Source: the human T2T-CHM13v2.0 reference genome, Homo sapiens
DNA: 64,000 bases
Assembly: GCF_009914755.1 (NCBI RefSeq)
Contig: NC_060928.1
Direction: 5' to 3' (one strand)
The notes beneath the pieces are model-generated. The model had not been told where the DNA came from and did no database searches. It was given only the letters and a program-made list of their open reading frames with translations. Below, in pieces: positions 50,756-56,390 of the stretch. How positions within the stretch are numbered: position 1 is the first letter of the stretch; the number at the start of each line of letters is the position of its first letter. Position numbers and translations under genes: made by a program.

Positions 50756-53537
50756 AATCCAATGATCTTCCTCTTCTTCATGCTGTTCTACAATGCTTAA
50801 CTACTTTCATATTCTTTGTGCAATCCACTTCCTGTAAGAGTTATTTCCTCTACCTGAAAGTTTATGATGTACTTTGGATACCTTAATATGTATGAAATTA
50901 GCTAGTTTCCTTATGTGTTTTTATTGTATTCTGTTCTCCTATACATTGGTAGTTTGTTATAAATTTGAAAAAATAAACTGGATTTAGGCATGTACATAAA
51001 CACTTAGACAGCATATGTAACTGGAAAATTATGTTAGCTTCATGCAAGGAGGGAGGACATCACAATGCTAAGAATAGTGAAATGTGAGTTAGTGCTATTG
51101 ATAGAAATATATAGCTCTCTTTTATGAAGATAATAAATTGTGAATTAAACTAATTTATTTATGTTCTAGACTCAGTTCATTGTCGGTGTACAGACAGAGC
51201 TTTACTTTCAAAGAATAGCTACACACAGAAACAATTCTAGGATCCAATACTTTTTGAACACCCTGTAGTTGGGCATTATAATAGTATTATTAGATAATTT
51301 TAGAGTGCCAATTATAGTCTTATAAATACAATCTGTGAAACTGGAAAGTTCTCAAGGAAGTAAGTTTGAAGATGGTGATCTTTAAGAGCATGGATCATAA
51401 ATTAAAATAATCAAATAAAGCAGTTGTTGTAGAAAGAAACAAAATAAAGGCTAGGGAAGTTTATAGAAACAATAATCTTAAAAATAAAGATATCCAAAAT
51501 GTTATTATCAAAAGAAATCCATGTGAAATGCTTAATTTCTGAAAACAAATAAAAATCCAAAAAAGAGGAAGTCAAGCTTTCATGGAAAACTTCAAACAAA
51601 TGACAAAACAGGATTATTTAAAACACAGTTAAACACTCCTTGGAATAGAGAATGAAGAAGAACTAACATTAGCAAGGTAGAAAAGAAATGACATTTTAGT
51701 CTGCAAGATGGACCCTTAATTCACAGAAATTATCCTTTATTATTTTCAAAAGTTGTTCTAAAACTTGGTGATACTCTAATTCAAGACATGGGTAGGAAAA
51801 GGGGAGATTTATGTGCCTTTTACTGAACCACTTTTACTCATGCTCAGCCTCAACATTATTATTTTCTTTCAACTGCATGACTATACCTTGGGAGGAATAA
51901 ATAATTTGAAAATATATGAGTTAACAAAGAAAGAAATGCAGAGTTGCAGACTGATAATGGAAATTACAGGGGTTATAAAATATCATATATTGCGTTGCCA
52001 TTAAGATGAAAGGAATACAGGAAGTTATAAATAACCCACACCATTTTTTAAAAGACTGCTTTTTAAATATTCTTTGTGGAAGCATAACTGATAAAAGTCT
52101 AGTCATTTTTCATGTGAAGTCATTTTTCTCAATAAGCAATTTGCTAAAGTGAAAAAACAGGATTAGACAATGGTTGCATTGTTTCATTCAGTACTTCTGA
52201 ATGAAATGTCATATCCTGCGTACAGTCTCATACATGAGTGAAATGTTGAATGGCTTTGTAATATATAGGTGTTATGCAAAAGAAATGTGAAACAGTCTAT
52301 AAAAATAATGCTTTTATCATGGAACAATAAAGAAATCACAAAGAAAAGAACCATTTATGGTATTACCAACTTATTGAATTCTTTACAATTTATAAAGTGT
52401 TTTCAGGTACATAATTCAATTAAGTTTTCCTAAGAACTCTGTAATCTAGCCATTTAATACTATTTTTCTTACACAGACACCGAATAACATTAAATGACTT
52501 GCTTAAAGTCTCATAGGTAAATCTTTTGATTTTTAAGTCAAAGCGGTAGAGAAGTTGTAAGTCTAAGAAAAGGTGAAAAAAGATATGGGAGAGAATGGCA
52601 TCTGCTATTTTCAAGAATACCTCAGGCCTTACACTTATTAAGTGACTTTACTTGCTGTATTTACTATGAGATAGGAAGAACCAAAATGTCAGGGAACAGA
52701 AAAGAATGACTCTATTGAAACAGCCTCAAATTATTCCTCAGTTCTGCACAAACAGTTTGATATTATTCTGAACTATATAACATTCTGCAAAGGAAAAGGG
52801 ACCAATTTACCCATATTTCATGTTGAGCCAGTAAGAAAGCCCAGACCACTTGGATCTTCTAACTTCCATTGAAAACTGCAGGTCAGGTAGAGCAAGGTTG
52901 CATTAGATGATTTGGAAAAGAAAGGGGATAGGTAAGAGGAATTTACTTATTGGATCCAAACTAATTAAATCATGCAACAAATGCCTTACGCATGTCACCT
53001 TGGTAAGAGAAAGGGAAAGTCTCAGAGAATATACATAGTCTACTTTAATGACAAAGATTTGTTTCTGGCAGGATCTTAAAATATTAGATCTCAACATCAA
53101 CAATGATGTGTATAATTTTTACACTATATTCATAGTGGCTTTCAAAGAGGCTAGAAATTAATAAAATTCGGTTTAAAGTAAAAGAGTTGTGAACTAGTGC
53201 ACTGTAAAATTGTTTGGTTATATTAGCACACAGAAATGTTCTCTGATCCACTAATTATCCCATGTATTTTCTTATTTCTGGAAAATACCTGTCAAAACGC
53301 TTTCTCTGATGATAACGATGACTACAGTTGTATGTATTCTAAATATATAAATGAAGTAAACATCTCAAAAAATGTGTATGCTTCACAATTGATTTTCTGT
53401 ATTCATCTCTTAAACTTAATTTTCTGTAGTTAGTTGCTACTTGCAACTTTTACTCTGAAAATAAAATTCACTAAATATAATATCTTTTGAGTGTGTTTTA
53501 CATTAAAATAATTTTATTTACATTGTCAGTTTTTTTT

Positions 53538-53653
53538 AATTTAAAAATACTTTATTGCTAAAAGATGCTAACGATCAAGTGAAACTTCAGTGAGTTTCAA
53601 TCTTTTAGCTGGTGGAGGGTTTTGCCTGGATGTTGATGGCTGCTGGCAATTTC

Positions 53654-53655
<2 letters not shown>
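53538..53655 (-). other. L1 3' transduction: Tigger1-like segment with AATAAA (53551-53556, minus strand) and second poly-A (53530-53537)
   Basis: Lies between the L1 poly-A and the TSD; aatttaaaaatactttattgctaaaa...gctggtggagggttttgcctggatgttgatggctgctg resembles recalled Tigger1. Confidence 0.85.

Positions 53656-56390
<2,735 letters not shown>

What the first reader, a model, noticed from the sequence alone, without database searches (positions are those of the whole stretch)
53525..53669. L1 3' transduction carrying a Tigger1-like tag that barcodes the source element
Seen, reading the minus strand: L1 3'UTR, first poly-A (53654-53669), ~115 bp of non-L1 sequence, AATAAA (53551-53556), a second A-run about 13 nt later (53530-53537), then the TSD. 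The TSD gtcagttttt (53525-53534) is repeated exactly at 56356-56365 and followed by aaaaa, reconstructing a canonical TT/AAAA L1 endonuclease site. The extra sequence therefore lies inside the insertion. It resembles Tigger1 and stops at gcaatttctt, where recalled Tigger1 continues aaaata, itself an L1 target site. Inference: the parent L1 sat in a Tigger1 copy, read through its own weak poly(A) signal and used a Tigger1-derived one. A DNA-transposon fragment was thus moved by retrotransposition; a repeat masker would probably call it an independent Tigger1 relic.
Basis: partly seen in the sequence, partly recalled or inferred. Interest (0 to 1): 0.75.

Follow-up and report, generated by a model that had tools for sequence, protein, structure and literature searches.

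The report
L1 copy tagging a vanished parent
An old human L1 retrotransposon copy carries 121 bases that match one Tigger DNA-transposon fossil 8.5 Mb away on the same chromosome, where no L1 sits today, so it likely records an ordinary read-through (3' transduction) from a parent L1 that has since been lost.

Summary
Between a 10-bp target-site duplication (53525-53534, 56356-56365) lies a 2.8-kb, 5'-truncated, 5'-inverted L1, its poly-A, and a 121-nt tag (53535-53655). The tag matches one place only: C4:149,402,232-352, at 117/121, with a shared private 41-nt deletion. That donor is a near-full-length Tigger fossil (DDE_1). It holds no L1 at the junction and no young L1 in 20 kb, and no sibling copies were found. 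The junction is a recurrent retroposon insertion site in Tigger: 16 of 415 motif-intact copies carry an insertion there, two of them L1s. The tag ends 13-16 nt after the first AATAAA downstream of that site. Best reading (0.88): a 3' transduction, roughly 12-18 Myr old, from a parent L1 that never fixed or was lost. Transductions with empty donors and retrotransposed Tigger pieces are both described in print. New member of a known kind; interest 0.3.

The parts
53525..53534 (+). Target-site duplication, copy at the 3' end of the insertion (10 bp)
   Evidence: Exact repeat at 56356-56365
53530..53537 (-). Terminal A-run: 5 bases belong to the TSD and 3 are templated by the donor; untemplated tail 0-3 nt
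   Evidence: Donor alignment starts at 53535
53535..53655 (-). 121-nt tag from the 3' part of a Tigger copy at G000:C4:149402232-149402352
   Evidence: 117/121 identity; shared 41-nt deletion and 9 shared departures from 28 other copies; deletion-junction motif found twice in the genome
53551..53556 (-). AATAAA of the Tigger copy, the likely poly(A) signal used; first signal 100 nt downstream of the donor junction
   Evidence: the donor continues with a U/GU-rich stretch after the tag end
53656..53669 (-). First poly-A, the inferred tail of the parent L1 (14 nt, one interruption)
   Evidence: absent from the donor
53670..55323 (-). L1 3' piece: end of ORF2 and 3' UTR; 1-nt deletions at 54239 and 53930
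   Evidence: 93-96% identical to 29 genomic L1 copies; indels against 28 relatives
55323..56355 (+). Inverted upstream ORF2 piece (twin-priming type); 6-12 nt lost at the inversion point; 1-nt deletion at 55644
   Evidence: Maps to L036 453-1488 while the 3' piece maps to 1495/1501-3175
56356..56365 (+). Target-site duplication, second copy, followed by AAAAA; the empty site reads TTTTT/AAAAA

Best explanation
The 121-nt tag inside this L1 insertion comes from one Tigger fossil at C4:149.40 Mb that holds no L1 today, and it was likely carried here by 3' transduction from a parent L1 that once sat in that fossil and has since been lost. Shown: one TSD pair bounds L1, poly-A and tag; the donor is unique; the donor site is empty; the junction is a site where other Tigger copies carry L1 and Alu insertions; the tag ends 13-16 nt after the first AATAAA downstream. 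Inferred: (1) a full-length L1PA3/L1PA4-age element inserted at TCTT/AAAA in the donor, in the Tigger's sense; (2) its transcript ran past the L1 poly(A) signal and was polyadenylated at the Tigger signal; (3) the RNA was reverse-transcribed at the window's TTTTT/AAAAA site, primed at the base of the tail, and a second priming event gave the inversion; (4) the parent allele never fixed or was sorted out (most likely), or was removed cleanly by recombination between its TSDs. One genome cannot tell these apart.
For: Donor identity 117/121; the other 38 scored hits are 90% or less and end by query position 113. A shared 41-nt deletion and 9 shared substitutions; the junction motif occurs twice in 3.1 Gb. 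Donor frames hit DDE_1, E 5.9e-13. Alu insertions sit at the same nucleotide in 3 of 28 other Tigger copies, 2 with visible TSD. Genome-wide, 16 of 415 motif-intact copies (3.9%, CI 2.2-6.2; 14 independent events) carry an insertion there, including two L1s with the architecture the parent needs. Of 28 T-rich ends in 2 kb of donor, only the junction is followed by AAAA. Ages agree: 3 of 121 tag-only changes against 56 of 2685 near-private changes in the L1. Precedent for empty donors: in PMC12593883 sources were found for 84% of SVA transductions, the rest having no element at the origin (passages).
Against: The parent is not seen: no young L1 in C4:149,394,000-149,413,999, and no trace of a TSD at the junction. 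No sibling carries the tag. There is almost no second poly-A tail, so polyadenylation rests on signal spacing. The donor is on the same chromosome, 8.5 Mb away, whereas most transductions are interchromosomal (PMC9311842, passages). No other primate genome or human haplotype could be examined.
Confidence: 0.88

Rival explanations
1. No L1 ever sat at the donor. Reverse transcription began on a cellular RNA ending at the Tigger poly(A) site and switched to the poly-A tail of an L1 RNA, or the two RNAs were ligated. This would be a chimera in the reverse order of U6/L1.
For: The donor is empty. The cDNA would end in TTTCTT, which can pair with a poly-A tail. Template switching and RNA ligation are accepted for other L1 chimeras (PMC13174262, passages).
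Against: A switch needs T-richness but not the following AAAA; 1 of 28 T-rich ends in 2 kb has it, and it is the junction. The site is an independent insertion hotspot. The chimeras in the passages read have the non-L1 part 5' of the L1. No donor transcript is known to me; the donor's annotation was not available.
Confidence: 0.06
2. DNA-level capture: during repair of the L1 insertion, 121 nt of chromosome 4 were copied in from 8.5 Mb away (repair-mediated duplication or a coupled two-site event).
For: Same chromosome; almost no tail; such duplications exist (PMC2671141, passages).
Against: In that paper 824 of 1,136 donors lie within 5 kb, and all 17 poly-A-bearing cases were distant and read as retrotransposition. 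Here one end is an endonuclease hotspot, the other lies 13-16 nt after AATAAA, the strand is the one a transcript would have, and a clean TSD bounds the whole.
Confidence: 0.04
3. An independent Tigger relic lay here before the L1 inserted next to it.
For: Tigger copies are abundant (1711 first-look candidates).
Against: The tag lies inside the TSDs; no donor Tigger similarity exists elsewhere in the 64-kb window; it shares a private deletion with one distant copy; P(4 or fewer mismatches at 12% divergence) = 0.002.
Confidence: 0.01

Closest known systems
L1-mediated 3' transduction (described in PMC9311842 and bioRxiv 10.1101/2021.07.12.451456; passages read)
   Same: L1, first poly-A, flank from a traceable locus, downstream poly(A) signal, one TSD pair, endonuclease-type target.
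   Different: The donor holds no L1, the flank is itself a repeat, and the second tail is nearly absent. Pipelines that need a parent element would likely miss it.
Transductions with a missing source element (SVA: PMC12593883; L1: Boissinot et al. 2001, recalled, not held)
   Same: Origin inferred from the tag although the element is absent, read as lost or rare.
   Different: This event is far older than the polymorphic SVA cases, so present-day polymorphism of the parent is unlikely.
Retro-DNAs (Tang and Liang, PMC11195612; abstract, passages and section 12 read)
   Same: A TIR-less Tigger piece moved by L1 machinery, with a long TSD, a TT/AAAA target and a parent copy.
   Different: Here the piece is attached to its L1; that study removed entries within 50 bp of a retrotransposon as possible transductions.
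Twin-primed (5'-inverted) L1 insertions (mechanism summarised in PMC13174262; original paper not held)
   Same: Two L1 pieces in opposite orientation, small deletion at the inversion point, one TSD pair.
   Different: No microhomology at the TSD-side junction and only 1 exact nt at the inner junction.
Insertion hotspots inside older transposons (Levy et al., PMC2836564; passages read)
   Same: Repeated retroposon insertion at one position of a host element.
   Different: This Tigger position is not named in the passages seen; the supplement could not be searched.

Membership tests
L1 3' transduction | L1 and extra sequence inside one TSD pair at an endonuclease-type site | tested here: met
   10-bp TSD; empty site TTTTT/AAAAA
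L1 3' transduction | Extra sequence lies 3' of the L1 poly-A and maps to a unique other locus | tested here: met
   117/121 to C4:149402232-352; unique deletion junction
L1 3' transduction | Poly(A) signal 10-30 nt before the end of the tag | tested here: met
   AATAAA 13-16 nt before the end; first signal after the junction
L1 3' transduction | Second untemplated poly-A tail | tested here: inconclusive
   8 A: 5 from the TSD, 3 also in the donor
L1 3' transduction | Source L1 at the donor at the time of the event | tested here: inconclusive
   Absent in this genome; junction is an insertion hotspot filled by L1 in 2 other copies; other primates not available
L1 3' transduction | Outgroup empty site lacks both L1 and tag | not testable with these tools
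   No related genomes are held for this window
Tigger (pogo-like) DNA transposon, donor copy | DDE_1 transposase remnants | tested here: met
   PF03184 in 2 of 6 frames scanned, best E 5.9e-13
Tigger (pogo-like) DNA transposon, donor copy | Terminal inverted repeat with TA target, about 2.4 kb | tested here: inconclusive
   One end with TA at about 149,404,360 mirrors the opposite end of 5 other copies; the other end is degraded; about 2.33 kb after removing a nested old L1
Tigger1 (subfamily name) | Match to the Dfam/Repbase Tigger1 consensus | not testable with these tools
   No repeat library; the name Tigger1 is recalled
Retro-DNA (Tang and Liang) | Stand-alone DNA-transposon piece, not within 50 bp of a retrotransposon | tested here: not met
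   The tag abuts the L1 poly-A
Twin-primed L1 | Inverted 5' piece contiguous in the element with the 3' piece, small deletion or duplication at the inversion point | tested here: met
   L036 453-1488 against 1495/1501-3175
L1PA3/L1PA4 | Subfamily-diagnostic positions | not testable with these tools
   No consensus library; assignment rests on recalled diagnostics, 2.1% near-private divergence and a nearest full-length relative of about 6.16 kb

The most novel reading that the evidence does not exclude
The Tigger1 3' end is a recurring transduction trap: an L1-endonuclease hotspot lies 100-140 nt upstream of the transposon's own AATAAA on the same strand, so any active L1 landing there exports the same Tigger segment. 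Part of the published Tigger1 'retro-DNAs', whose most-used region ends near consensus position 2240, about where this tag ends, would then be orphan transductions from vanished L1s rather than a separate route.
Probability: 0.2. Interest if true: 0.5.

Novelty: new member of a known kind. Interest (0 to 1): 0.3.

Why it matters
It is a clean fossil record of an active L1 that is no longer in the human reference: the tag names to the nucleotide where the parent sat, which makes a one-look test in ape genomes possible. It also shows that a repeat annotated as a DNA-transposon relic can be a retrotransposed passenger. Neither point is new in kind, and nothing suggests a function for the copy, which lies in the intron of LINC02172. 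It would matter more if the Tigger hotspot plus AATAAA explained many events.

Tried and rejected
Surviving parent at the donor: not found; the only L1 similarity in 20 kb is an old copy at 68-74%. Siblings: deletion-junction motif with 1 mismatch gave 2 hits; the distal 76 nt gave one hit at 96% and the rest at 89% or less, 40 of 631 candidates scored; none of 29 close L1 relatives carries the tag. A sibling with 2 or more changes in the motif could be missed (about 13% each, my estimate). L036 (C3:51.49 Mb) as sibling or parent: it is sister to the window copy in the inverted-piece tree (95/84) but not in the 3'-piece tree, and its similar A-rich end is explained by its own target site; rejected. 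Offspring of the two L1s in the same Tigger site: none among 40 scored candidates each; best hits over most of the query 84% or less, short partial hits up to 95-97%. This counts against the 'trap' idea, although their lengths were not checked. The source's ORF2 frameshift cannot be checked; three 1-nt deletions are seen in the copy and none is the majority state in its relatives. The repeat finder did not list the TSD among its top 20 families. Papers not held: Szak 2003, Boissinot 2001, Smit and Riggs 1996, Jacobs 2014, Ostertag and Kazazian 2001, Hoyt 2022 journal version. LINC02172 appears in 4 papers by listing only, none on retrotransposition by title.

Full report
Observation. On the minus strand: L1 3' UTR, a poly-A at 53656-53669, non-L1 sequence, AATAAA at 53551-53556, eight A at 53530-53537. 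The 10-mer at 53525-53534 recurs exactly at 56356-56365 and is followed by AAAAA. It occurs three times in the window against 0.46 expected, so its weight comes from its position at both ends of the insertion.

The L1. Against its closest genomic relatives (29 loci) the element has two pieces: 53670-55323 on the minus strand and 55323-56355 on the plus strand. In relative L036 they map to 1495/1501-3175 and 453-1488, so 6-12 nt are lost at the inversion point, with one exact base of overlap. L036 is a full-length element of about 6.16 kb; the window copy keeps its last 2.7 kb. This is the twin-priming structure. Near-private differences are 40 of 1652 and 16 of 1033, 2.1% in all. With a recalled neutral rate of 0.12-0.17% per Myr that is about 12-18 Myr. 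The label L1PA3/L1PA4 rests on recalled diagnostics; bioRxiv 10.1101/429613 (passages) places L1PA3 activity in the great-ape ancestor. ORF2 has 1-nt deletions at 55644, 54239 and 53930, likely acquired after insertion.

The tag and its donor. A search of the whole genome (40 of 1711 candidates scored) gave one non-self hit at 97%, C4:149,402,232-149,402,352; the other 38 are at 90% or less and end by query position 113. The match is 117 of 121 without gaps. Tag and donor share a 41-nt deletion and 9 substitutions against 28 other copies (one lies at the deletion edge and depends on the alignment); the tag has 3 changes of its own and the donor 1. The deletion-junction motif occurs twice in the genome with up to one mismatch. 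The donor is a Tigger-type fossil: 2 of 6 frames scanned hit DDE_1, one terminal repeat with TA survives, and it spans about 2.33 kb once a nested old L1 is removed. The name Tigger1 is recalled. No donor Tigger sequence lies elsewhere in the window, so the piece is not a relic.

The donor is empty. At the junction the donor runs on as Tigger, TTTCTT then AAAATA. The only L1 similarity in 20 kb is an old element at 68-74%.

Was an L1 ever there? Three results say likely yes. First, 3 of 28 other Tigger copies carry an Alu at the same nucleotide and strand, two with visible TSD. Second, of 415 genomic copies with an intact 19-nt motif followed by A or T, 390 continue with A and 25 with T; copies continuing with C or G were not counted. 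The 25 are 13 Alu loci (3 are near-identical chr17 copies of one event), 2 L1, 1 short T-tailed insert with TSD, 7 point changes and 2 unclear: 16 of 415, 3.9%. The two L1s show the architecture the parent needs. Third, of 28 T-rich ends in 2 kb of donor, 2 are followed by AA and only the junction by AAAA. At the other end, the tag stops 13-16 nt after the first poly(A) signal downstream of the junction, 100 nt away, and the donor continues U/GU-rich. The tag's age (4 of 121 differences, CI 0.9-8.2%) fits twice the L1's divergence.

Against. The second tail is not shown: five of the eight A are the TSD and three are in the donor. Priming at the base of the tail or later shrinkage explains this, but polyadenylation rests on spacing alone. 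The parent is inferred. The donor is on the same chromosome, while most transductions are interchromosomal (PMC9311842, passages). The two surviving L1s in the hotspot have no detectable offspring.

Mechanism. Most likely (0.88): a full-length L1 inserted at the Tigger hotspot at 149.40 Mb; a transcript read through the L1 signal and was polyadenylated at the Tigger AATAAA; it was inserted 8.5 Mb away by target-primed reverse transcription with a second priming event; the parent allele never fixed, was sorted out, or was deleted cleanly. Rivals: template switch or RNA ligation from a Tigger-ending transcript (0.06), DNA-level capture during repair (0.04; PMC2671141, passages), independent relic (0.01).

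What is known. 3' transduction is an established process: the T2T repeat preprint lists 183 high-confidence L1 3' events (passages; its Table S13 was not seen). Empty donors are known: PMC12593883 found sources for 84% of SVA transductions and inferred lost or rare ones for the rest (passages); a similar L1 result by Boissinot et al. 2001 is recalled only. Retrotransposed Tigger pieces are known as retro-DNAs (PMC11195612; abstract, passages and section 12), a set that excludes L1-adjacent cases by design. Hotspots in older elements are known (PMC2836564, passages). My searches found no mention of this locus, but supplements of PMC2836564, PMC11195612 and the T2T preprint and the Szak 2003 paper could not be seen, so absence from print is not shown.

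One lead. PMC11195612 reports that Tigger1 retro-DNAs use consensus positions about 1840-2240 more often. The tag ends 170-180 nt from the terminal repeat in four intact copies, which is about 2240 if the recalled 2.4-kb length holds. The transposon's own AATAAA may set that edge, and some retro-DNAs may be orphan transductions. This is untested.

Verdict. Real, well explained, a new member of a known kind. Interest 0.3.

Noticed in passing
G000 genome-wide; L069 (C3:56991570), L074 (C4:172363549), L018, L029, L003, L072-L089: One nucleotide in the Tigger 3' part is a recurrent L1-endonuclease-type insertion site: 16 of 415 motif-intact copies carry an Alu, L1 or short insert there, all on the same strand.
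   Followed up: partly
L031, G000:C4:149400130-149402150: An old L1 nested in the donor Tigger's 3' end also looks 5'-inverted and has a TSD of about 16 bp.
   Followed up: no
L078, G000:C9:116168889: A short T-tailed insert of about 65 nt with a TSD at the Tigger hotspot; it matched none of my four reference pieces.
   Followed up: no
L065/L036, G000:C3:51486365-51492520: Full-length L1 of about 6.16 kb inserted in an Alu tail; nearest relative of the window copy among those scored.
   Followed up: partly
L037 and L038, G000:C23:153.58 and 153.74 Mb: Two inverted, apparently identical L1-containing stretches, likely arms of a large inverted duplication.
   Followed up: no
window 56339-56340: Two adjacent bases are swapped relative to L036 near the end of the inverted piece.
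   Followed up: no
L003:1662-2343: Two Alus at the Tigger hotspot with an adjoining loss of about 40 nt of Tigger sequence and no visible TSD.
   Followed up: no
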